Assembly (NCBI GenBank): GCA_002923195.1
Contig: BDTH01000076.1
Location: 1-42,951 of the forward strand
Source of the DNA: a bacterium BMS3Abin15
GTDB taxonomy: Bacteria; Patescibacteriota; Minisyncoccia; Moranbacterales; 2-12-FULL-40-10
Reading direction: 5' to 3'
DNA: 42,951 bases
Position 1 is the stretch's first letter; the number at the start of each line of letters is the position of its first letter. Shown piece after piece: positions 2,704 through 40,058 of the stretch. Made by a program: the position numbers and the translations under genes. The notes below the pieces were generated by a model. That model saw only the letters and a list, made by a program, of their open reading frames with translations, was not told the DNA's origin and ran no database searches.

Positions 2704-3249
2704 ATGAATCAGGACAAGTTAAAATCAATAATAGAATCACTGCTGTTTGTCAGTGGTGAGCCGATAAAAATATCGCGCTTGGTTAAAATTTCCGGAGCGC
2801 CAAAACCAGAAATAGAAAATGCCATAATGGCACTGTCTAGCGAGTATGAGTCTCAGAACAGGGGATTGAGGATTGTTAAAAAGGAAAATCAGGTCCAAAT
2901 GGCAACCGGCCCAGAAAGTGCTCCTTACGTTCAGCAGTTGATTGAAGGAAAGTTGCAAGAAGAACTGTCTACAGCCTCTCTCGAAGTTGTATCAATTGTG
3001 GCTTACCGTGGTCCGATAACTCGGGCAAATATTGAATCTATTCGAGGGGTAAATTGTAGTTATACTCTGCGCAACCTTTTGATGAGAGGACTAATAGATA
3101 GAACGGAAAATCCTAAGGACGCCCGCGGATATGTTTACAGTATATCTTTTGACTTTTTGAAAAAATTAGGGATTGATGATGTTAAAAAACTGCCTGATCA
3201 CGAAATAATGTCAAAAGATGAAAGGATAGATAATATAATCCAATCATAA
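2704..3249 (+). CDS. scpB: Segregation and condensation protein B
   Basis: IESLLFVSGEPI, LSTASLEVVSIVAYRGPITRANIESIRGVN motifs. Confidence 0.95.
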   Translation: MNQDKLKSIIESLLFVSGEPIKISRLVKISGAPKPEIENAIMALSSEYESQNRGLRIVKKENQVQMATGPESAPYVQQLIEGKLQEELSTASLEVVSIVAYRGPITRANIESIRGVNCSYTLRNLLMRGLIDRTENPKDARGYVYSISFDFLKKLGIDDVKKLPDHEIMSKDERIDNIIQS

Positions 3250-3372
3250 ATTCTAATTCCCAAATTCTAAGCACGAAACAAACTATAATTATTTAAATTC
3301 AAATACCTTAAACTTTTAGAAAATTTGAAATTTGATATTGTTTAGGATTTAGATATTAGAATTTAGAGTTTT
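3248..3372 (+). repeat. 7-mer-periodic imperfect palindromic element, same family as 2534-2696, no insert
   Basis: AAATTCTAATTCCCAAATTCTAAGCACGAAACAA ... TTGTTTAGGATTTAGATATTAGAATTTAGAGTTT fills the whole scpB to DD-carboxypeptidase gap. Confidence 0.75.
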
Positions 3373-3381
3373 TAAATCATT

Positions 3382-4389
3382 ATGAATTTTATTTTAATTA
3401 TTTTAACTCTAACTTTCCCACTGGCTTCCTTTTTAGGATTCCAGAAAATGTATTCCTCTGCGGGAGAGGAAAAACAAGCGGAAATTTCAGAAAAGCTGGC
3501 TGATTCCGGCGGGGAGGTTAAAGGTGAAAATATTGCACAGAAAAGCGTACTTCCCGTTGTGCCATCCCGTCCCATAAGAAAGGAGGGGTATCCAGATCTT
3601 GTTGTGCCCGATGCGCACGCTTCCCTTATATTGGATGTGGATTCAGGAACAATCCTCCACTATAATAAAGGAAGAGAAAGGCGCCAGATCGCCTCTCTTA
3701 CAAAACTGATGACTGCTGTAATAGTGGTAGAGAAAATGTCAAATCTTGACGAGGTAGTAACTGTTGATGAAGAGGCGGTTTATGCCGATGGGACGAAAGT
3801 CGGATGTCCACGTTCCGGCTATTGCATAGGAAACCGGCTGAAAGTCGGAGAGAAAATAACGGCCAGGAATTTGCTTAAGGCAATGTTGATGAACAGTGCC
3901 AATGACGCGGCCATCGCTTTAGGAAAACACATTAGTGGCTCGCAGGAAAAATTTGCCAGACTAATGAATGATAGGGCTAAGGAATTAGGACTTAAGGACT
4001 CTAATTTTTGCACTCCGTCGGGATTGGAAATCGACGGGAAGGAAAAGGAGTGTTATTCTTCAGCCTACGACATCGCCCGCATCGCCGCCCATTCGATGAA
4101 GTATGCCATTATTTGGGAAGCTTTGCGTCTTCCTCCGCAGACGATATTTTCAGCTGACGGAAAATATTCCCACGACATATTAAACACCGACCAGGTATTG
4201 GATCAAATTCCAAACTGCCTAGGAGGTAAAACCGGATTTACTCCAATGGCCGGCAGGTCGTTGCTTTTGGCTGCTGGCGACAAGACAGGTGAACATAAAA
4301 TAATAGCAGTAGTATTAGATAATCCCTATCGTTGGCAAGATATTCCAATGATGATAAGTTGGGCATTTGAAGCCCATGAATGGCAATAA
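3382..4389 (+). CDS. D-alanyl-D-alanine carboxypeptidase (peptidase S11, DacA/PBP5-like)
   Basis: N-terminal hydrophobic anchor; SxxK (ASLTK), SxN (SAN) and KTG motifs. Confidence 0.9.
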   Translation: MNFILIILTLTFPLASFLGFQKMYSSAGEEKQAEISEKLADSGGEVKGENIAQKSVLPVVPSRPIRKEGYPDLVVPDAHASLILDVDSGTILHYNKGRERRQIASLTKLMTAVIVVEKMSNLDEVVTVDEEAVYADGTKVGCPRSGYCIGNRLKVGEKITARNLLKAMLMNSANDAAIALGKHISGSQEKFARLMNDRAKELGLKDSNFCTPSGLEIDGKEKECYSSAYDIARIAAHSMKYAIIWEALRLPPQTIFSADGKYSHDILNTDQVLDQIPNCLGGKTGFTPMAGRSLLLAAGDKTGEHKIIAVVLDNPYRWQDIPMMISWAFEAHEWQ

Positions 4390-4391
4390 TA

Positions 4392-4434
4392 TAAATCCCC
4401 AATCGACGCAAATCTTTCCCCAATAATCACGAAT
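4392..4434 (+). repeat. Left arm of inverted repeat flanking the GxxExxY gene
   Basis: TAAATCCCC-AAT-CGACGCA-AAT-CTTTCCCC-AAT-AATCACG-AAT; imperfect reverse complement of 4821-4864. Confidence 0.7.
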
Positions 4435-4447
4435 ATAAAAACATAAA

Positions 4448-4825
4448 ATGCCAAAACTAATTCATCCAGAGCTAAGCTATAAAATAGTAGGTGCCTTATA
4501 TGCGGTATATAATTCAATAGGCAGTGGCTACCAAGAAAGATATTACCAAAGGGCATTGTCGAAAGAATTTAAAGATGAAAAAATAAAATTTAAGGAACAA
4601 TTGCCGATAAAGCTGGAATACAAAGGCGATAATTTAGGCATATACTATATAGATTTTCTAACAGAAGATAAGATAATTTTAGAAATAAAGAATTCTTCTA
4701 AGTTTTACCCAAAAGATATCAAACAAGCCCTGGGATATTTAAAGGCAAAAAATAAAGAGTTAGGCATACTTGCTTGTTTTGGAAAAAATGGGTTGATACA
4801 CAAAAGAATTTTAAAAGGAAATTAG
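4448..4825 (+). CDS. GxxExxY protein (PD-(D/E)xK nuclease superfamily)
   Basis: GSGYQERYY signature, D-F-L...I-I-L-E-I-K catalytic-type motif, Q...YLK...LGIL; 125 aa. Confidence 0.9.
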   Translation: MPKLIHPELSYKIVGALYAVYNSIGSGYQERYYQRALSKEFKDEKIKFKEQLPIKLEYKGDNLGIYYIDFLTEDKIILEIKNSSKFYPKDIKQALGYLKAKNKELGILACFGKNGLIHKRILKGN

Positions 4826-4864
4826 AAATAATTCGTGATGAAATTGGTGTAGATTAGTGATTTA
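4821..4864 (+). repeat. Right arm of inverted repeat flanking the GxxExxY gene (includes its TAG stop)
   Basis: ATTAGAAATA-ATTCGTGATGAA-ATTGGTGTAG-ATTAGTG-ATTTA; 34/44 identical without gaps to 40008-40051 (hand count). Confidence 0.75.
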
Positions 4865-4869
4865 ATTCA

Positions 4870-5970
4870 ATGGAAATAGCACAGATACAAACAATTCCCA
4901 TGGTGATTAATGTTATGAAAGTTTTAGTTACGGGAGCTATAGCTTTCTTTTTGGCTTTTTTAATTACTCCATTTTGGACTAACGTTTTATATAGATTTAA
5001 AATAGGCATAAAGATAAAAGAAAAGTCGTATGATGGCGATAAATTGACGTTTGTGAATAAACTTCATGCGAGGAAGGCGGGGACTCCCACAATGGGAGGA
5101 GTTATAATCTGGGTTTCTGTTTTAATTCTGGTTTTTGCTTCTCATTATCTTTTCCCGATTTTTGCCAGGTGGACAGACATAAATTTTATTGCCCGCCTTG
5201 ATTTCTTAAGCCGTTCCCAAGTTTGGCTCCCACTTTTTGCATTAGTGACAGCCGGTGTTCTGGGGCTTTTTGATGACATCATGAGTATCCGCGGGTGGGG
5301 AAGCAATAAAGGAGGAGGGATGAAATTTGCTATGCGCTTTTGGTGGCTCTTCGCTATTGCCGGGGTTGGTGCCTGGTGGTTTTTCAGCAAGCTTGGATGG
5401 GATCAAATTCATATTCCAGCTGTGGGAGATTTCTCTATTGGATTTTGGTATGTTCCGTTGTTTGTTTTTGTAATCTTTTTTACGGCTTTTTCATCTAACG
5501 AAACTGACGGATTGGACGGGCTGAATGGCGGTGTGCTTCTTATGGCATTTGCGTCATTTACTATTATAGCTTTTCTTCAAAATAAGGTTGATATGGCAGC
5601 TTTTTGCGCCGCTATTTCAGGAACACTTCTGGCTTTCCTCTGGTTTAATATTTATCCGGCCAGGTTTTTTATGGGAGACACAGGAGCTATGGCTCTGGGG
5701 ACTACTTTGGGAGTAGTGGCTATGCTTACTAACTCAGTTTTAGTCTTATTTGTTATAATGGCTATTTATATACTAGAATCAGGAAGTGCCGCCGTACAGC
5801 TCTTGAGTAAAAAGTATCGGGGGAAGAAAATATTTTTGGCAGCGCCGATTCACCACCATTTTGAGGCTAAGGGCTGGCCGGAGCCTAAAATAGTTATGCG
5901 GGCCTGGATCTTTACCTCTGTCACTGCCCTTATTGGAGTAATTATTGGGATATTGGGAATGGGAAAGTAG
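4870..5970 (+). CDS. mraY: Phospho-N-acetylmuramoyl-pentapeptide transferase
   Basis: KAGTPTMGG, GLFDD, NETDGLDGL, PARFFMGDTG, APIHHHFE motifs; multi-TM. Confidence 0.95.
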   Translation: MEIAQIQTIPMVINVMKVLVTGAIAFFLAFLITPFWTNVLYRFKIGIKIKEKSYDGDKLTFVNKLHARKAGTPTMGGVIIWVSVLILVFASHYLFPIFARWTDINFIARLDFLSRSQVWLPLFALVTAGVLGLFDDIMSIRGWGSNKGGGMKFAMRFWWLFAIAGVGAWWFFSKLGWDQIHIPAVGDFSIGFWYVPLFVFVIFFTAFSSNETDGLDGLNGGVLLMAFASFTIIAFLQNKVDMAAFCAAISGTLLAFLWFNIYPARFFMGDTGAMALGTTLGVVAMLTNSVLVLFVIMAIYILESGSAAVQLLSKKYRGKKIFLAAPIHHHFEAKGWPEPKIVMRAWIFTSVTALIGVIIGILGMGK

Positions 5971-6089
5971 TTTATGGCTACTTTTTTTATTTCCACTTTT
6001 TTGGTAAAATTGCAGTGATACCGCTAAAAAATTAGAATGGAAAAAGTAGAGGATAGTTTTTATGTTAGGCGAAGAAAAACCGAAATAAA

Positions 6090-9784: not shown

Positions 9785-9870
9785 TCTACTAATTACAAAT
9801 CAAGTACAAATATACGAATGTGAATTAAAAAATATTTGTAAATTTGTAAAAGATTTGTGGATTTGTAGGA
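9785..9870 (+). repeat. TAC(A/G)AAT-unit imperfect palindromic element
   Basis: TCTACTAATTACAAATCAAGTACAAATATACGAAT ... ATTTGTAAATTTGTAAAAGATTTGTGGATTTGTAGGA; close relative of 16054-16138. Confidence 0.75.
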
Positions 9871-16050: not shown

Positions 16051-16053
16051 TGT

Positions 16054-16138
16054 TTCTACTAATTACGAATTGTGTACGAATATACAAATAAATAATTCGT
16101 TATTGGTAAATTTGTAATCGATTTGTAATTTGTAGGAA
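16054..16138 (+). repeat. TAC(A/G)AAT-unit imperfect palindromic element
   Basis: TCTACTAATTACGAATTGTGTACGAATATACAAAT ... ATTGGTAAATTTGTAATCGATTTGTAATTTGTAGGA; ends a few nt before the infA ATG. Confidence 0.75.
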
Positions 16139-16142
16139 GTTT

Positions 16143-16355: not shown

Positions 16356-16359
16356 ATAA

Positions 16360-16444
16360 AACTCACGAATTAAGAACTAATAAAAAGCGAATAAGAACGA
16401 ATATTCGCACCAATTAGTTTCTAATTCGTTCGTGTTAGCGAGTT
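16360..16444 (+). repeat. CGAAT/ATTCG-unit imperfect palindromic element
   Basis: AACTCACGAAT-TAAGAACTAAT-AAAAAGCGAAT-AAGAACGAAT / ATTCGCACCA-ATTAGTTTCTA-ATTCGTTCGT-GTTAGCGAGTT. Confidence 0.7.
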
Positions 16445-16563: not shown

Positions 16564-16661
16564 TATGCGAAAAGCGCTCGCTCGCACTACGCACTCGCGA
16601 AATGCGAAAGCGCACATGCGAATAAGTTCGTAGATTCGTATTTAATTCGTAGTTTCGTATC
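16564..16661 (+). repeat. (T/A)GCGAA / TTCGTA-unit palindromic element with GC-rich insert
   Basis: ATGCGAA x3 on the left interrupted by GCGCTCGCTCGCACTACGCACTCGCG; TTCGTA x4 on the right. Confidence 0.6.
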
Positions 16662-16670
16662 GGTATAATT

Positions 16671-18202: not shown

Positions 18203-19186
18203 ATGACAACAATATCACTCCCCCAAAATCCAAAGTATACCGAAATTGACAAGAACAGCGGAAAATTTGAAATCCAGGGATGTTATCCTGGTTATGGAGC
18301 AACTATTGGAAATGCTCTTCGTCGAGTCTTACTTTCGTCATTAGAAGGGGCGGCCATAACCTCCATTAAAATTAAAGGGGTATCACATGAATTCTCTACC
18401 GTTCCTGGAATAATAGAGGATGTTATCCAAATTATTTTGAATATGAAGAAAATTCGTTTTAAAATGCATGGCGATAATTCAGTCAAGGTGACTCTGAAAT
18501 CCAAGAGTGAAGGGAAAATTACAGCCAAGGACATAAAGTGTCCCTCCGATGTTGAGGTAGTTAATGTTGATCAGATTATTGCTACCGTGAATGATAAAAA
18601 AACTGAAGTGGAGATGGAAATGGATATTTCCAATGGACTTGGATATATACCCGTAGAGCAACAGGAGAAGGAAAATAAGGAAATAGGCGTTATGGCGATT
18701 GATGCGATACACACTCCTGTAAAAAGAGTAAATTATAGTGTAGAAAATATGCGCGTGGGAAAAAGAACTGATTATGACAAGGTTACGTTGGAGGTAGTAA
18801 CTGATGGCAGCATTTCCCCACAGGACGCATTTGTTAAAGCAAGCCAGATTTTAGTAGACCAATTTTCTTCACTTCTTAAGATAGCATCCGAAAAAGAAAG
18901 TGAAAAAAAGGAGGCAAAAAAGGAGCCATTTTTGAAAACAGAAGAAATTAAAAAAGAAGAAGGAGATATTGAGATTGATGCACAAGAAACCGAAGTTACA
19001 GAACTTAAAAATCTATCCACCAGAACATTAAATGTTCTTGAGTCTAACAATATCAAAAAGGTTAAAGATATAACCCAATTAACAGAAGAAGAAATAAAGA
19101 ATCTTGAAGGCATGGGAGATAAGGGAATAAAAGAAATTAGAAAAACTATTGGGGATTTTGGATTAACACTTAAAAGTCACGAATAA
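18203..19186 (+). CDS. rpoA: RNA polymerase alpha subunit
   Basis: GYGATIGNALRRVLLSSLEG, HEFSTVPG, alpha-CTD LSTRTLNVL. Confidence 0.98.
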   Translation: MTTISLPQNPKYTEIDKNSGKFEIQGCYPGYGATIGNALRRVLLSSLEGAAITSIKIKGVSHEFSTVPGIIEDVIQIILNMKKIRFKMHGDNSVKVTLKSKSEGKITAKDIKCPSDVEVVNVDQIIATVNDKKTEVEMEMDISNGLGYIPVEQQEKENKEIGVMAIDAIHTPVKRVNYSVENMRVGKRTDYDKVTLEVVTDGSISPQDAFVKASQILVDQFSSLLKIASEKESEKKEAKKEPFLKTEEIKKEEGDIEIDAQETEVTELKNLSTRTLNVLESNNIKKVKDITQLTEEEIKNLEGMGDKGIKEIRKTIGDFGLTLKSHE

Positions 19187-19284
19187 TCACGAATTTTGAT
19201 GAAAAAGGTAAACTTTTTCATCTCGCTAATCAACGCGAATAATTCGGGATAGTTGGAGACAGATTCGAGTAGATTAGCGATTTA
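19175..19284 (+). repeat. GxxExxY-type palindromic element without gene, with nested hairpin 19198-19222
   Basis: CACGAAT-AATCACGAAT..CAACGCGAAT / ATTCGGGATA-GTTGGAGACAG-ATTCGAGTAG-ATTAGCG-ATTTA; last 16 nt 15/16 identical to the GxxExxY right arm; contains the rpoA stop. Confidence 0.75.
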
Positions 19285-19291
19285 TATCATT

Positions 19292-31859: not shown

Positions 31860-32570
31860 ATGAGTAAATTAGTTTTTGACATCGAAACGGTCGGAGAGGA
31901 TTTTGATTCACTAGATAAGACCACTCAGGAGGTATTGACACGTTGGATTAAGAAGGAGTCAGTAAGCGATTCGGAATACAGGATTTCTCTTGAAGACTTG
32001 AAAAGCGGAATGGGTTTTTCGCCCTTGACTGGCGAAATTGTGGCCATGGGTGTTTTAGATGTGGAGAAAAGCAAGGGCGGAGTATATTACCAGGCGCCGG
32101 GCGAGAAAGTTGAAAATTTTGAAGAAGATGGAATAAAGTTTGAAGCGATGAGTGAAAAAGAGCTACTGGAAAAATTCTGGAACATAGCGGAAAAATACAC
32201 GGAATTTATCGATTTTAACGGCAAAAGCTTTGACGTTCCTTTTATAATGGTTAGGTCGGCTATTCACAAGGTCAAACCCTCAAAGAATTTAATGTCTAAC
32301 CGGTATCTGGGAAGCCAGAAATTTGATGCCAAACACGTGGATCTTTTGGATGAATTGACTTATTACGGAGCGGTGCGAAGAAAGGGAGGGCTGCATCTGT
32401 GGTGCCGGGCCTTCGGCATAAAAAGTCCCAAGGATGAAGGTGTAACCGGTGATGATGTAGGAAAGTTATTTAAAGAGAAAAAGTTCGCTGATATTGCCAA
32501 ATACAATGTAAGAGATCTCTATGCTACCAAGGAACTCTATGAATACTGGGATAAATACATAAGATTTTAA
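31860..32570 (+). CDS. PolB-like 3'-5' exonuclease (DEDDy, RNase H-like fold)
   Basis: ExoI FDIET, ExoII FNGKSFDVPF, ExoIII YNVRD. Confidence 0.85.
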   Translation: MSKLVFDIETVGEDFDSLDKTTQEVLTRWIKKESVSDSEYRISLEDLKSGMGFSPLTGEIVAMGVLDVEKSKGGVYYQAPGEKVENFEEDGIKFEAMSEKELLEKFWNIAEKYTEFIDFNGKSFDVPFIMVRSAIHKVKPSKNLMSNRYLGSQKFDAKHVDLLDELTYYGAVRRKGGLHLWCRAFGIKSPKDEGVTGDDVGKLFKEKKFADIAKYNVRDLYATKELYEYWDKYIRF

Positions 32571-39917: not shown

Positions 39918-39922
39918 TGATT

Positions 39923-40051
39923 TAAATCGCGAATCAACTCGAATTTAATCTCCTGCCCGCAATGCTTCGCAATGGCGTTGCAGGCGGGCGAATATTCGCG
40001 AATAATTATCAGAGATAATTAGTGAATTAATTAGCGTAAATTAGAGATTTA
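39923..40051 (+). repeat. GxxExxY-type palindromic element without gene, with nested GC-rich hairpin 39952-39988
   Basis: TAAATCGCG-AAT-CAACTCG-AAT-TTAATCT[insert]CG-AAT-ATTCGCG-AAT / ATCAGAGATA-ATTAGTGAATTA-ATTAGCGTAA-ATTAGAG-ATTTA. Confidence 0.8.
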
Positions 40052-40058
40052 TAACATC

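What the first reader, a model, noticed from the sequence alone, without database searches (positions are those of the whole stretch)
4392..4864. GxxExxY nuclease gene sits in the loop of a palindromic element that also occurs 'empty' in ribosomal operons: candidate autonomous/non-autonomous mini-mobile system
Seen: the 125-aa GxxExxY gene is bracketed by ~44-nt inverted arms built of four AAT/ATT units at 10-12 nt spacing, and the right arm contains its stop codon. The same arms without a gene lie between rpsL and rpsG (right arm 40008-40051, 34/44 identical, ungapped) and between rpoA and rplQ (19175-19284; terminal GTAGATTAG(T/C)GATTTA 15/16). A looser copy lies between infA and rpmJ (16360-16444). 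Established: GxxExxY proteins are PD-(D/E)xK-fold proteins of unknown function; REP/RAYT and MITE/IS pairs show this filled-versus-empty logic. Inference: a cassette that inserts at gene junctions of core operons, with GxxExxY as the enzyme that recognises, cuts or mobilises the hairpin (DNA or RNA). I cannot confirm from here whether this has been described.
Basis: partly seen in the sequence, partly recalled or inferred. Interest (0 to 1): 0.82.

Follow-up and report, generated by a model that had tools for sequence, protein, structure and literature searches.

The report
Word-armed GxxExxY nuclease gene cassette
A small nuclease gene wedged between two cell-wall genes of an ultra-small bacterium is bracketed by mirror-image rows of a short repeated DNA word, and gene-less copies of such rows are scattered through this and related genomes, pointing to an apparently undescribed selfish nuclease-plus-repeat element.

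Summary
Window 4448-4825 encodes a 125-aa GxxExxY/PDDEXK_3 protein. It is bracketed by inverted arrays of four to five 7-nt words at 10-12 nt phase. The quoted similarities to gene-less spacers (34/44, 15/16) are exact and far above background.

The pattern is general. In 56 GxxExxY genes from this genome, its order and its phylum, 29 have flanks more complementary than 95% of mismatched flank pairs.

The dac-mraY junction is filled here. It carries a gene-less word hairpin in at least 5 of 26 comparable relatives, one with a left arm homologous to the window's. It is bare in 14.

Whole cassettes, arms included, sit in frame inside gatB, recG and a lepA-like gene elsewhere. TACRAAT arrays occur in 17 of 18 GxxExxY-positive relatives and 7 of 23 negative ones.

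So the filled/empty cassette logic is supported. That GxxExxY is the mobilising enzyme is not shown. Four-helix-bundle genes use the same architecture with other words, and no excision product was seen. Only the words are complementary, not the spacers, so the hairpin looks secondary to inverted binding-site arrays.

This scan has noted such cassettes many times on other DNA. My literature searches found no description.

The parts
4392..4434 (+). Left arm: word array TAAAT / CCCCAAT / CGCAAAT / CCCCAAT / CACGAAT (7-11 nt phase), filling the dac-to-GxxExxY spacer
   Evidence: Sequence. Inverted repeats I1, I4 and I10. Homologous to the gene-less dac-mraY spacer of relative G036: local score 50 against a shuffle maximum of 37, reached by 0 of 1000 shuffles.
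4448..4825 (+). GxxExxY / PDDEXK_3 gene (125 aa), a minimal PD-(D/E)xK nuclease fold with G27-E30-Y33, D69, E79 and K81
   Evidence: In the alignment of 29 relatives Y33, D69, K81, Q93, Y97 and R120 are invariant. AlphaFold model pLDDT 95. Nearest folds are Cas4 SSO0001 and lambda exonuclease.
4826..4864 (+). Right arm: ATTCGTG / ATTGGTG / ATTAGTG / ATTTA. It ends 5 nt before the mraY start codon. The 44-nt similarity block 4821-4864 also covers the stop codon.
   Evidence: 34/44 identity to 40008-40051 and 15/16 to 19269-19284.
3382..4389 (+). Upstream host gene: D-Ala-D-Ala carboxypeptidase (Peptidase_S11)
   Evidence: Pfam 5.7e-50.
4870..5970 (+). Downstream host gene: mraY
   Evidence: Pfam Glycos_transf_4 and MraY_sig1. 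Found in 41 of 41 relatives.
39918..40058 (+). Gene-less word-array element between rpsL and rpsG: CGAAT words, then a nested GC-rich hairpin, then ATTAG words
   Evidence: Its right arm is 34/44 identical to 4821-4864.
19175..19284 (+). Gene-less word-array element between rpoA and rplQ. It starts inside the rpoA end.
   Evidence: 15/16 terminal match.
16356..16444 (+). Gene-less word-array hairpin between infA and rpmJ, of another sequence family
   Evidence: MFE -24.9. Homologue at C53:9175-9285.
16570..16670 (+). Gene-less element whose right arm is homologous to the right arm of the GxxExxY cassette at G000:C40:4807-5199
   Evidence: blastn-short: 94.9% over 39 nt to C40:4751-4789. Flank sequences.
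9785..9870 (+). Gene-less TACRAAT-family hairpin, with the same words as the cassette at G000:C74:56978-57376
16053..16140 (+). Gene-less TACRAAT-family hairpin just upstream of infA
3250..3381 (+). Gene-less AT-rich word hairpin (CTAA/CAAA words against TTAG/TTTG words) upstream of dac. A similar one lies at about 2600-2703.

Best explanation
Window 4392-4864 is one copy of a self-contained insertion cassette. It consists of an array of about four 7-nt words (family consensus TNCRAAT, phased 8-12 nt), a promoter-less GxxExxY gene, and the same words inverted. The gene encodes a minimal Cas4/lambda-exonuclease-like PD-(D/E)xK nuclease with intact catalytic residues. The cassette sits in the dac-mraY spacer in operon orientation and is read through from the host operon.

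Shown:
- The cassette, arms included, is a unit that is present, gene-less or absent at orthologous junctions.
- It can land in frame inside essential genes.
- Gene-less word hairpins outnumber filled ones.
- Each paralogue has look-alike gene-less elements in the same genome.

Inferred, as the most likely mechanism:
- The words are the recognition sites of the encoded nuclease, as with Ssn and its SRM repeats or RAYT and REPINs. Several protomers would bind the phased words on both arms.
- Cutting there drives rare copying or homing of the cassette, or acts on the gene-less arrays in trans.
- The hairpin potential is a by-product of inverted site arrays, not the selected feature.
For: (1) Arms are copy-specific. 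In 56 cassettes the mean matched score of upstream flank against the reverse complement of the downstream flank is 29.6, against 15.6 for 3080 mismatched pairs. 29 of 56 reach the 95th percentile and 18 of 56 the 99th. In 23 of 56 the gene's own downstream flank is the best partner. Among 116 neighbouring genes 11 reach the 95th percentile; Mann-Whitney p=3e-12.

(2) Words repeat at lags of 8 and 11 nt. The word before AAT is T-N-C-R. 28 of 56 cassettes have at least 3 AAT upstream and at least 3 ATT downstream, against 13 of 56 for the mirror arrangement.

(3) In 8 complete TACRAAT hairpins the spacers are complementary at 5 of 40 positions, while the words are kept. In filled cassettes word columns match at 81% and other columns at 61% (22 of 56 usable). 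This means sequence-specific constraint on words, not on a helix.

(4) Junction states at dac-mraY, classed by eye in 26 relatives with the same gene pair: 1 filled (this genome), 5 clear gene-less word hairpins plus 1 possible, 14 spacers of 36 nt or less, and 5 other. The G036 spacer is homologous to the window's left arm (0 of 1000 shuffles reach it) and to its right end (3 of 1000).

(5) In-frame insertion of arms plus gene in gatB (L030; this genome's own gatB is uninterrupted), in recG (L012) and in a lepA-like gene (L088).

(6) The closest homologue (68% identity, similar CCCYAAT words) lies between other genes in G024.

(7) Genome-level link: TACRAAT arrays occur in 17 of 18 GxxExxY-positive genomes and 7 of 23 negative ones. 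Spearman rho is 0.73, and the positive mean is higher in 6 of 6 families that hold both states.

(8) D69 and K81 are invariant in 29 sequences. The model has pLDDT 95 and a nuclease fold.
Against: - No biochemical or read-level evidence of cutting or movement. Contigs of 4 public runs show no joint across the gene, but contigs drop rare variants.
- Four-helix-bundle genes, which are not nucleases, sit in the same architecture in 6 of 7 cases. The cargo protein therefore need not be the mobilising enzyme.
- Arrays persist where no GxxExxY gene was found: G030 15 hits and G019 9 hits.
- Some cassettes are syntenic across families: upstream of a hydrogenase-like gene in 5 loci (my reading of the downstream sequence, no family search), and between rpsG and fusA in G003 and G016. 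Movement is therefore rare. One of these subfamilies has lost the motif glutamate.
- Word vocabulary could follow protein family simply because arms and gene descend together.
- Genomes are related, so the association tests overstate.
- The window's own arms are degenerate at DNA level (rank 106 of 1105).
Confidence: 0.45

Rival explanations
1. IVS-like RNA element. The arms pair in the operon transcript, RNase III cuts the stem, and the inserted ORF is removed from, or separated within, the host mRNA, as for ORF-bearing intervening sequences of 23S rRNA. The ORF is a selfish passenger.
For: - Four-helix-bundle genes, the family first found in 23S IVS (PMC4990558, introduction read), have the same gene-in-arms layout here.
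- Both neighbours are co-oriented with the gene in 44 of 52 cassettes.
- No promoter-like site lies in the left arm.
- The genome holds an RNase III gene.
- Two TACRAAT hairpins fold much better on the sense strand: -27.8 against -16.8 and -29.2 against -14.0 kcal/mol.
Against: - Spacers between words are not complementary (5 of 40).
- G.U-type mismatches do not exceed A.C-type in the arms (71 against 53, p=0.13).
- Pairing alone does not explain why all four words of an arm are the same.
- In-frame cassettes inside gatB and recG must be translated through, because RNA excision would break those mRNAs.
Confidence: 0.2
2. Cargo model. The word arrays are ends recognised by some other enzyme acting in trans, host-encoded or from another element. 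GxxExxY and four-helix-bundle genes are interchangeable cargo, for example addiction or defence functions.
For: - Two unrelated small-protein families share one architecture.
- Gene-less arrays far outnumber filled ones: 33 TACRAAT arm hits in this genome, of which 2 flank GxxExxY genes.
- Arrays occur in genomes where no GxxExxY gene was found.
- The genome holds IS200-like Y1 transposase genes.
Against: - The Y1 transposase genes are flanked by their own GC-rich palindromes, not by word arrays.
- No third gene family was seen to accompany the cassettes; I made no systematic search.
- GxxExxY arms share a core (TNCRAAT) that the four-helix-bundle arms of this genome lack.
- The genome-level association with GxxExxY.
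Confidence: 0.15
3. Host regulatory hairpins. The word hairpins are native intercistronic signals (mRNA stabilisers, attenuators or translation controls) of core operons, and small selfish ORFs merely settle in their loops because loops tolerate insertions.
For: - Elements lie in spacers of co-directional operons and end just before the next start codon.
- A conserved GTAGATTAGNGATTTATA motif precedes at least 6 start codons.
- Recalled, not tested here: the rpsL-rpsG spacer is a known S7 regulatory site in E. coli.
Against: - The same junction is bare in many close relatives: 14 of 26 at dac-mraY, and 9 of 30 rpsL-rpsG spacers are 44 nt or shorter. It carries different words in others. No conserved regulatory role is apparent.
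- The arms travel with the gene into coding sequences.
- No Rfam family matches anywhere in the window.
Confidence: 0.12
4. Chance resemblance among AT-rich intergenic sequences.
For: - The genome has 37% G+C, and the individual 9-mers of the arms are not over-represented.
- blastn-short found no hit for the window's arms.
Against: - 34/44 is exceeded at only 2 of 2.43 million positions.
- Matched flanks exceed mismatched ones across 56 cassettes.
- The TACRAAT array pattern gives 33 hits in this genome against 0 for the reversed control pattern.
Confidence: 0.01

Closest known systems
REPIN / RAYT systems (Bertels and Rainey 2011, PMC3116915; abstract read)
   Same: Short extragenic repeats in inverted pairs that can form hairpins. 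There are many gene-less copies per genome. A single enzyme gene is flanked by its own repeat family, with genome-specific families.
   Different: The enzyme here is a 125-aa PD-(D/E)xK fold, not a HUH Y1 transposase. Each arm is a phased array of about four 7-nt words rather than one palindromic REP. Spacers are not complementary. No transposition intermediate was seen. The gene lies inside the element, not beside it.
Ssn nucleases with NTS/SRM hairpin repeats (Chenal et al. 2025, PMC11893778; abstract and section 7 read)
   Same: A small single-domain nuclease gene flanked on both sides by its cognate repeat. That paper reports 42% of homologues flanked on both sides. Here 29 of 56 exceed the 95th percentile. 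Genomes rich in the repeat usually hold the gene.
   Different: The fold is GIY-YIG there and PD-(D/E)xK here. The repeat there is a conserved GC-containing hairpin, here lineage-specific AT-rich word arrays. The function shown for Ssn, ssDNA cleavage that modulates transformation, is untested here.
ORF-bearing intervening sequences (IVS) of 23S rRNA (Warrier et al. 2016, PMC4990558; abstract and introduction read)
   Same: A small ORF sits in the loop of an insertion bordered by complementary sequences. Distribution is sporadic. The ORF has no promoter of its own and often a poor ribosome-binding site. Four-helix-bundle (S23p / PF05635) genes of this genome have the same word-arm layout.
   Different: The cassette lies in an mRNA spacer or inside protein genes, not in an rRNA helix. 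The cargo is a nuclease-fold protein. Arms pair only at the words. RNase III excision is untested here and is incompatible with the in-frame copies.
Rickettsia palindromic elements
   Same: Palindromic insertions that can sit in frame inside essential genes and be translated. Compare the gatB, recG and lepA-like insertions.
   Different: RPEs carry no gene. Here the in-frame insert includes a whole nuclease domain of about 125 aa.

Membership tests
GxxExxY / PDDEXK_3 (TIGR04256, PF13366) | Profile match above the curated cut-off | tested here: met
   PF13366 scores 103.1 bits against a cut-off of 22. TIGR04256 scores 104.6 bits against 35.
GxxExxY / PDDEXK_3 (TIGR04256, PF13366) | GxxExxY motif and the PD-(D/E)xK catalytic triad | tested here: met
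   G27-E30-Y33, D69, E79 and K81 are present in the translation. Y33, D69 and K81 are invariant in 29 sequences.
REPIN/RAYT | The enzyme is a HUH Y1 (IS200-like) tyrosine transposase | tested here: not met
   Pfam gives only PDDEXK_3. The fold search finds Cas4 and lambda exonuclease. Genuine Y1_Tnp genes exist elsewhere in the genome with other repeats.
REPIN/RAYT | The enzyme gene is flanked by the repeat family, which is abundant elsewhere in extragenic space as inverted doublets | tested here: met
REPIN/RAYT | Excision or transposition intermediates in population reads | tested here: inconclusive
   Only assembled contigs of 4 runs were available, and they showed no joints. Contigs cannot show rare forms.
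Ssn / SRM | Single-domain GIY-YIG nuclease | tested here: not met
   The protein has a PD-(D/E)xK fold.
Ssn / SRM | Site-specific ssDNA cleavage next to the cognate repeat | not testable with these tools
   Needs a nuclease assay.
ORF-bearing 23S rRNA IVS | [quoted passage not shown] | tested here: not met
   The cassette lies between dac and mraY. No rRNA or any other Rfam match occurs in the window.
ORF-bearing 23S rRNA IVS | Bordered by complementary sequences that form a stem cut by RNase III | tested here: inconclusive
   The flanks can pair (-17.9 kcal/mol gain) and an RNase III gene is present. However, spacers are not complementary, there is no G.U excess, and no RNA data exist.
Cas4 | RecB-type nuclease of about 200 aa with a four-cysteine Fe-S cluster, in a CRISPR-cas context | tested here: not met
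   The protein has 125 aa and a single cysteine. Only the fold is similar (4ic1, E 3e-4, TM 0.57). The neighbours are dac and mraY.
Classical IS / MITE | A DDE, serine or tyrosine transposase with simple terminal inverted repeats and target-site duplications | tested here: not met
   No transposase domain is present. The arms are multi-word arrays. I could not identify a target-site duplication from the junction comparisons.

The most novel reading that the evidence does not exclude
GxxExxY proteins are a large family of word-specific nucleases whose specificity co-evolves with the 7-nt words that flank them. Four phased words on each side assemble a multi-protomer complex that copies or homes the cassette into operon spacers and even, in frame, into essential genes. 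That would be a transposase-free class of mobile element driven by a PD-(D/E)xK nuclease. Its gene-less word hairpins would be the non-autonomous progeny, and four-helix-bundle cassettes a parallel lineage using the same trick.
Probability: 0.25. Interest if true: 0.85.

Novelty: new variant of a known kind. Interest (0 to 1): 0.62.

Why it matters
GxxExxY / PDDEXK_3 is a widespread protein family listed as 'function unknown' in the 2012 survey of the superfamily (PMC3424549, passage read). Tying it to a defined DNA word array gives it a directly testable substrate.

If the nuclease reads its own words, three things follow:
- The family would be a natural library of small (about 125 aa) site-specific nucleases with varied specificities.
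- Many of the AT-rich periodic hairpins that fill operon spacers of ultra-small (CPR) genomes would be explained as its footprints.
- Annotators would know that odd insertions in genes such as gatB or recG, and long 'intergenic hairpins' in ribosomal operons, are parts of one selfish system.

Tried and rejected
- RNA evidence: no RNA holder was listed for the region, so transcript processing could not be examined.
- DNA polymorphism: contigs of runs X3-X6 laid on 3400-6000 show no joint, indel or variant at the cassette. This says nothing about rare forms.
- Rfam: no family matches in the whole window at gathering thresholds.
- RNA-versus-DNA test by mismatch type: 71 G.U-type against 53 A.C-type in 30 cassettes (p=0.13). 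In a noisy census of intergenic self-complementarity the counts were 746 against 681. Neither gives a usable signal.
- Cofold with 110-nt flanks, counting intermolecular pairs, did not separate real from random flank pairs: means 19.8 and 19.5. Dropped.
- Duplex energy alone is confounded by genes that lie between two complete hairpins (iscS-like, ftsE-like and the window's 2704-3249; these names are my reading of the sequences, not tested) or between two copies of one palindrome.
- A strict census (at least 3 identical 5-mers per arm at 7-13 nt spacing) found 12 elements against 1 in a control. It missed all the window's elements, so it is only a lower bound.
- blastn-short with the window's two arms found nothing at E<=0.01. 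Ungapped scanning did find matches.
- A sequence search of the PDB gave no relative; the best hit was xylose isomerase at E 0.0056, taken as chance.
- Literature: 'GxxExxY' (3 papers held, 2 listed; I read one passage, in the reverse-transcriptase paper, an incidental domain label, and did not open the other), 'PDDEXK_3' (1 paper) and PF13366 / TIGR04256 / PF05635 / TIGR02436 (3 papers) gave no description of such cassettes. Supplementary files were not open and subscription journals are not covered.
Words differ between copies and spacers do not pair, so a structure model would capture little.
Full report
**What is at the coordinates.**
- The window is contig C76 of a 1.22-Mb, 37% G+C genome in 114 contigs. 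Earlier notes of this scan call it a CPR/Patescibacteria (Moranbacteria) bin; I did not test that label.
- Window 4448-4825 (+) is a 125-aa ORF that matches PF13366 PDDEXK_3 (1.6e-29) and TIGR04256 GxxExxY (4e-30).
- It lies between a Peptidase_S11 D-Ala-D-Ala carboxypeptidase gene (3382-4389) and mraY (4870-5970), all on the + strand.
- The 58-nt upstream spacer reads TAAAT, CCCCAAT, CGCAAAT, CCCCAAT, CACGAAT. The 44-nt downstream spacer reads ATTCGTG, ATTGGTG, ATTAGTG, ATTTA. The spacing is 7-12 nt and mirrored.
- No sigma-70-like site lies in the left arm.

**Is it more than chance?**
- As RNA, the two 60-nt flanks gain 17.9 kcal/mol by pairing with each other. That ranks 14 of 1108 crude ORF calls and is reached by 0.2% of 1000 random flank pairs.
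- With Watson-Crick scoring only, the score is 20, rank 106 of 1105. This copy's arms are real but worn.
It is beaten at only two of 2.43 million positions in the genome.
- The 15/16 match at 19269-19284 is also exact.
- blastn-short missed these similarities.

**The pattern is general for the gene family.**
- The genome has 8 GxxExxY genes above the Pfam cut-off, among 9 matches at E<=0.01.
- 18 of 41 genomes of the order sample hold the family, and 21 of 151 in a phylum-wide sample.
- I extracted flanks for 56 genes. Thirty came from this genome and the order sample. There, 36 domain rows fell on 34 ORFs; I dropped 2 without a start codon and the 2 in-frame fusions. Twenty-six came from the phylum sample, where I dropped 1 without a start and 1 fusion.
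- The mean Smith-Waterman score of the upstream flank against the reverse complement of the downstream flank is 29.6 for a gene's own pair. It is 15.6 for the 3080 mismatched pairs.
- 29 of 56 reach the 95th percentile of mismatched pairs and 18 of 56 the 99th. In 23 of 56 the gene's own downstream flank is the best of 56 partners.
- Among 116 neighbouring genes in the same loci, 11 reach the 95th percentile (Mann-Whitney p=3e-12).
- Twenty-seven of 56 do not reach the 95th percentile. They include 4 of this genome's copies and several loci with no visible words.
- The flanks repeat 4-mers at lags of 8 and 11 nt, which sequence 50-100 nt further out does not.
- The letters before AAT give T-N-C-R-A-A-T. 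This facing (AAT words upstream, ATT words downstream) is seen in 28 of 56, against 13 of 56 for the mirror.
- Both neighbours are on the gene's strand in 44 of 52 cassettes. The median gaps are 52 and 46 nt, so the arms fill the spacers.

**Gene-less versions.**
- Many spacers of the window hold hairpin-like word arrays.
- The arms of the cassette at C74:56978-57376 belong to a TACRAAT family. Its complete gene-less hairpins include window 9785-9870 and 16053-16140.
- The right arm of the C40 cassette is homologous to window 16615-16670.
- A three-word TACRAAT pattern with up to 2 mismatches hits this genome 33 times, counting both strands. The reversed control pattern hits 0 times. Only 2 of the 33 hits flank GxxExxY genes.
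- Genes such as the 411-aa and 226-aa ORFs at C47 and C48 looked 'bracketed' at first. They lie between two complete hairpins, not in a loop.

**Orthologous junctions.**
- mraY was found in 41 of 41 relatives, and I read 30 loci. In 26 of them dac directly precedes mraY.
- Classed by eye, 1 is filled (this genome) and 5 carry clear gene-less word hairpins: G001 TACGAAT x4 (124 nt), G011 TCCGAAT (84 nt), G010, G028 and G036.
- A further 1 is possible, 14 have spacers of 36 nt or less, and 5 have longer spacers without evident words.
- The G036 spacer aligns to the window's left arm (score 50; shuffle maximum 37; 0 of 1000 shuffles reach it). It also aligns to the last right-arm word plus the mraY leader (3 of 1000). 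This is a gene-less orthologue of this very cassette in another family of the order.
- It has four left words but about one right word. That fits loss of the gene and most of the right arm at least as well as later gain of the gene.
- At rpsL-rpsG, 11 of 30 loci show clear word hairpins (by eye) with lineage-specific words. Nine have spacers of 44 nt or less, and the rest are ambiguous.
- GxxExxY genes sit between rpsG and fusA in G003 and G016, by coordinates and flanks.
- In G014 the hairpins on both sides of rpsG are near-identical to each other. They share their left arm with that genome's own GxxExxY cassette L022.

**The cassette moves as a unit.**
- In G014 the four CGAAT words, the GxxExxY domain and the four ATTCG words are inserted in frame in a loop of GatB. 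This genome's own gatB is uninterrupted at that point.
- In G020 a cassette is in frame in RecG between the DEQH and TATPIPRT motifs. The motif names are recalled.
- A third in-frame case, a 736-aa frame that begins like LepA/EF4, is in G128.
- The window protein's closest relative in my sample has 68% identity and similar CCCYAAT words. It lies between two unrelated small ORFs in G024, whose own dac-mraY spacer lacks it.
- Against frequent movement, cassettes upstream of a hydrogenase-like gene recur in 5 loci from 4 families. I identified that gene only by reading its N-terminus.

**Hairpin or site arrays?**
- In the 8 complete TACRAAT hairpins of this genome the 5 spacer positions per arm are complementary at 5 of 40. 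Word positions agree at 151 of 168, though that is partly by construction of the search.
- In 22 of 56 filled cassettes with a clear register, columns inside repeated words match at 81% and other columns at 61%. Choosing the register inflates both figures. A few copies are perfect palindromes, such as L078 at 36/36.
- Mismatches of the G.U kind do not exceed the A.C kind (71 against 53).
- I read this as follows. Arms are born as true inverted repeats, and afterwards only the words are kept. That is what binding sites would do and what an RNA stem would not.
- The point in favour of RNA remains that two TACRAAT hairpins fold 11-15 kcal/mol better on the sense strand. RNase III is encoded.

**Link to the protein.**
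- Across the 41 genomes, TACRAAT arrays occur in 17 of 18 genomes with GxxExxY (median 9 hits) and 7 of 23 without (median 0). Fisher p=3e-5 and Spearman rho=0.73.
- In all 6 families that hold both states the positive mean is higher, only marginally so in f9. The genomes are kin, so these p-values overstate.
- G030 (15 hits) and G019 (9 hits) have arrays but no detected gene.
- The protein model is confident (pLDDT 95). It resembles the cores of Cas4 SSO0001 (E 3e-4, TM 0.57), lambda exonuclease, MGME1 and AdnAB, and more weakly Hjc. With one cysteine and 125 aa it is not a Cas4.
- D69 and K81 are invariant in 29 sequences. The motif glutamate is replaced in the hydrogenase-linked subfamily.

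**The complication.**
- Seven PF05635 (23S-rRNA-IVS / four-helix-bundle) genes occur in this genome. Six are bracketed in the same way but by other words: CAGCTTT, AAAGTT, TCAGC, TTAACAT, TCTCAAA and AAGGATA.
- PF05635 is the family of IVS ORFs and resembles DGR Avd (PMC4990558 introduction; PMC10053308 passage).
- Either each cargo protein reads its own words, or a shared mechanism independent of the cargo builds and moves such arms. I cannot decide between these with the tools at hand.

**Comparison with what is known.**
- The logic resembles REPIN/RAYT (PMC3116915, abstract) and Ssn/SRM (PMC11893778, abstract and section 7). The layout resembles ORF-bearing IVS (PMC4990558).
- The cassette fails the defining enzyme feature of the first two and the rRNA location of the third.
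- My searches for GxxExxY, PDDEXK_3, PF13366 and TIGR04256 found only a superfamily table entry ('Unknown') and incidental mentions.
- Earlier notes of this scan report the same kind of cassette on much other DNA: 897 notes mention GxxExxY. One such note's claim that the nuclease reads the words was later marked as partly fallen. I therefore treat that step as inference.

**Verdict.**
- The role of the enzyme is plausible but unproven.
- I class it as a new variant of the known 'nuclease gene plus cognate repeat' kind.

Noticed in passing
Loci L030 (G014:C5), L012 (G020:C25), L088 (G128:C32): Whole GxxExxY cassettes, word arms included, are inserted in frame and without stops inside gatB, recG and a lepA-like GTPase gene. 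They would be translated as internal domains of about 150 aa.
   Followed up: partly
G000:C85:8989-9570 (L125), G000:C74:26153-26713 (L129), also C96:8978-9547, C85:11374-11952, C61:871-1455, C32:22927-23496, C39:5795-6409: A family of proteins of about 190 aa with a PaaX_M / Cas2-like domain (tested by Pfam on two of them). Each gene is flanked upstream and downstream by the same perfect palindrome, which is specific to that copy. This is a different kind of flanking repeat from the word arrays.
   Followed up: partly
G000:C58:4006-4650 (L126), C32:1619-2281, C24:7901-8569: IS200-like Y1 transposase genes flanked on both sides by their own GC-rich hairpin, a classical RAYT-like layout. They coexist with the word-array system. 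Pfam was run only on the first of the three.
   Followed up: partly
G000:C55:24733-25086 (L127), C86:2274-2621; C35:60502-60756 (L128), C24:16037-16291, C16:672-935, C88:306-551: DUF559 and 84-87-aa GIY-YIG genes are bracketed by GC-rich inverted repeats such as 'ccccacaccaa'. Earlier notes on this genome describe the GIY-YIG case.
   Followed up: no
window 39948-39990 and 2553-2595; also downstream of the GxxExxY gene at G000:C49:2690-3106: A GC-rich hairpin (cctgcccgc...gcaggcggg type) sits nested inside or beside the AT-rich word elements. This suggests a second repeat family that targets the same spacers.
   Followed up: no
window 4848-4869, 19268-19291, 40035-40058; G000:C24:~9825-9850(-), C19:~3905-3931, C29:~32075-32100(-): A conserved motif GTAGATTAGNGATTTATA(T/A)CATT lies directly before start codons of at least six genes. 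It may double as a translation leader supplied by the right arm.
   Followed up: no
G000:C19:3862-3926 against window 39989-40053: A 65-nt stretch is 92% identical to the right half of the rpsL-rpsG element. It also follows a 139-aa ORF (C19:3410-3829), the same length as the window's rpsL; I did not identify that ORF. This is either a recent element copy or a second strain in the bin.
   Followed up: no
Loci L006, L031, L034, L023 (and L020, which shares the downstream gene): A GxxExxY subfamily sits immediately upstream of a hydrogenase-like gene (my reading of its N-terminus) in 5 loci from 4 families. In L006, L031, L034 and L023 the motif glutamate is replaced by H or N; L020 keeps it. 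These copies may be inactivated or domesticated.
   Followed up: no
Locus L040 (G024:C5), dac-mraY spacer, 223 nt: At the junction that is filled in the window, this relative has a different insert. It is bounded by a near-perfect inverted repeat of about 25 nt (gaaaacaaacaaaatatatttttct...) with no word periodicity.
   Followed up: no
G000:C57:4292-4669: One GxxExxY paralogue is flanked by direct, GC-containing tandem units (ttgcgtcc / ttgcgagaa type) on both sides, not by inverted AT-rich words. This is an exception to the rule.
   Followed up: no
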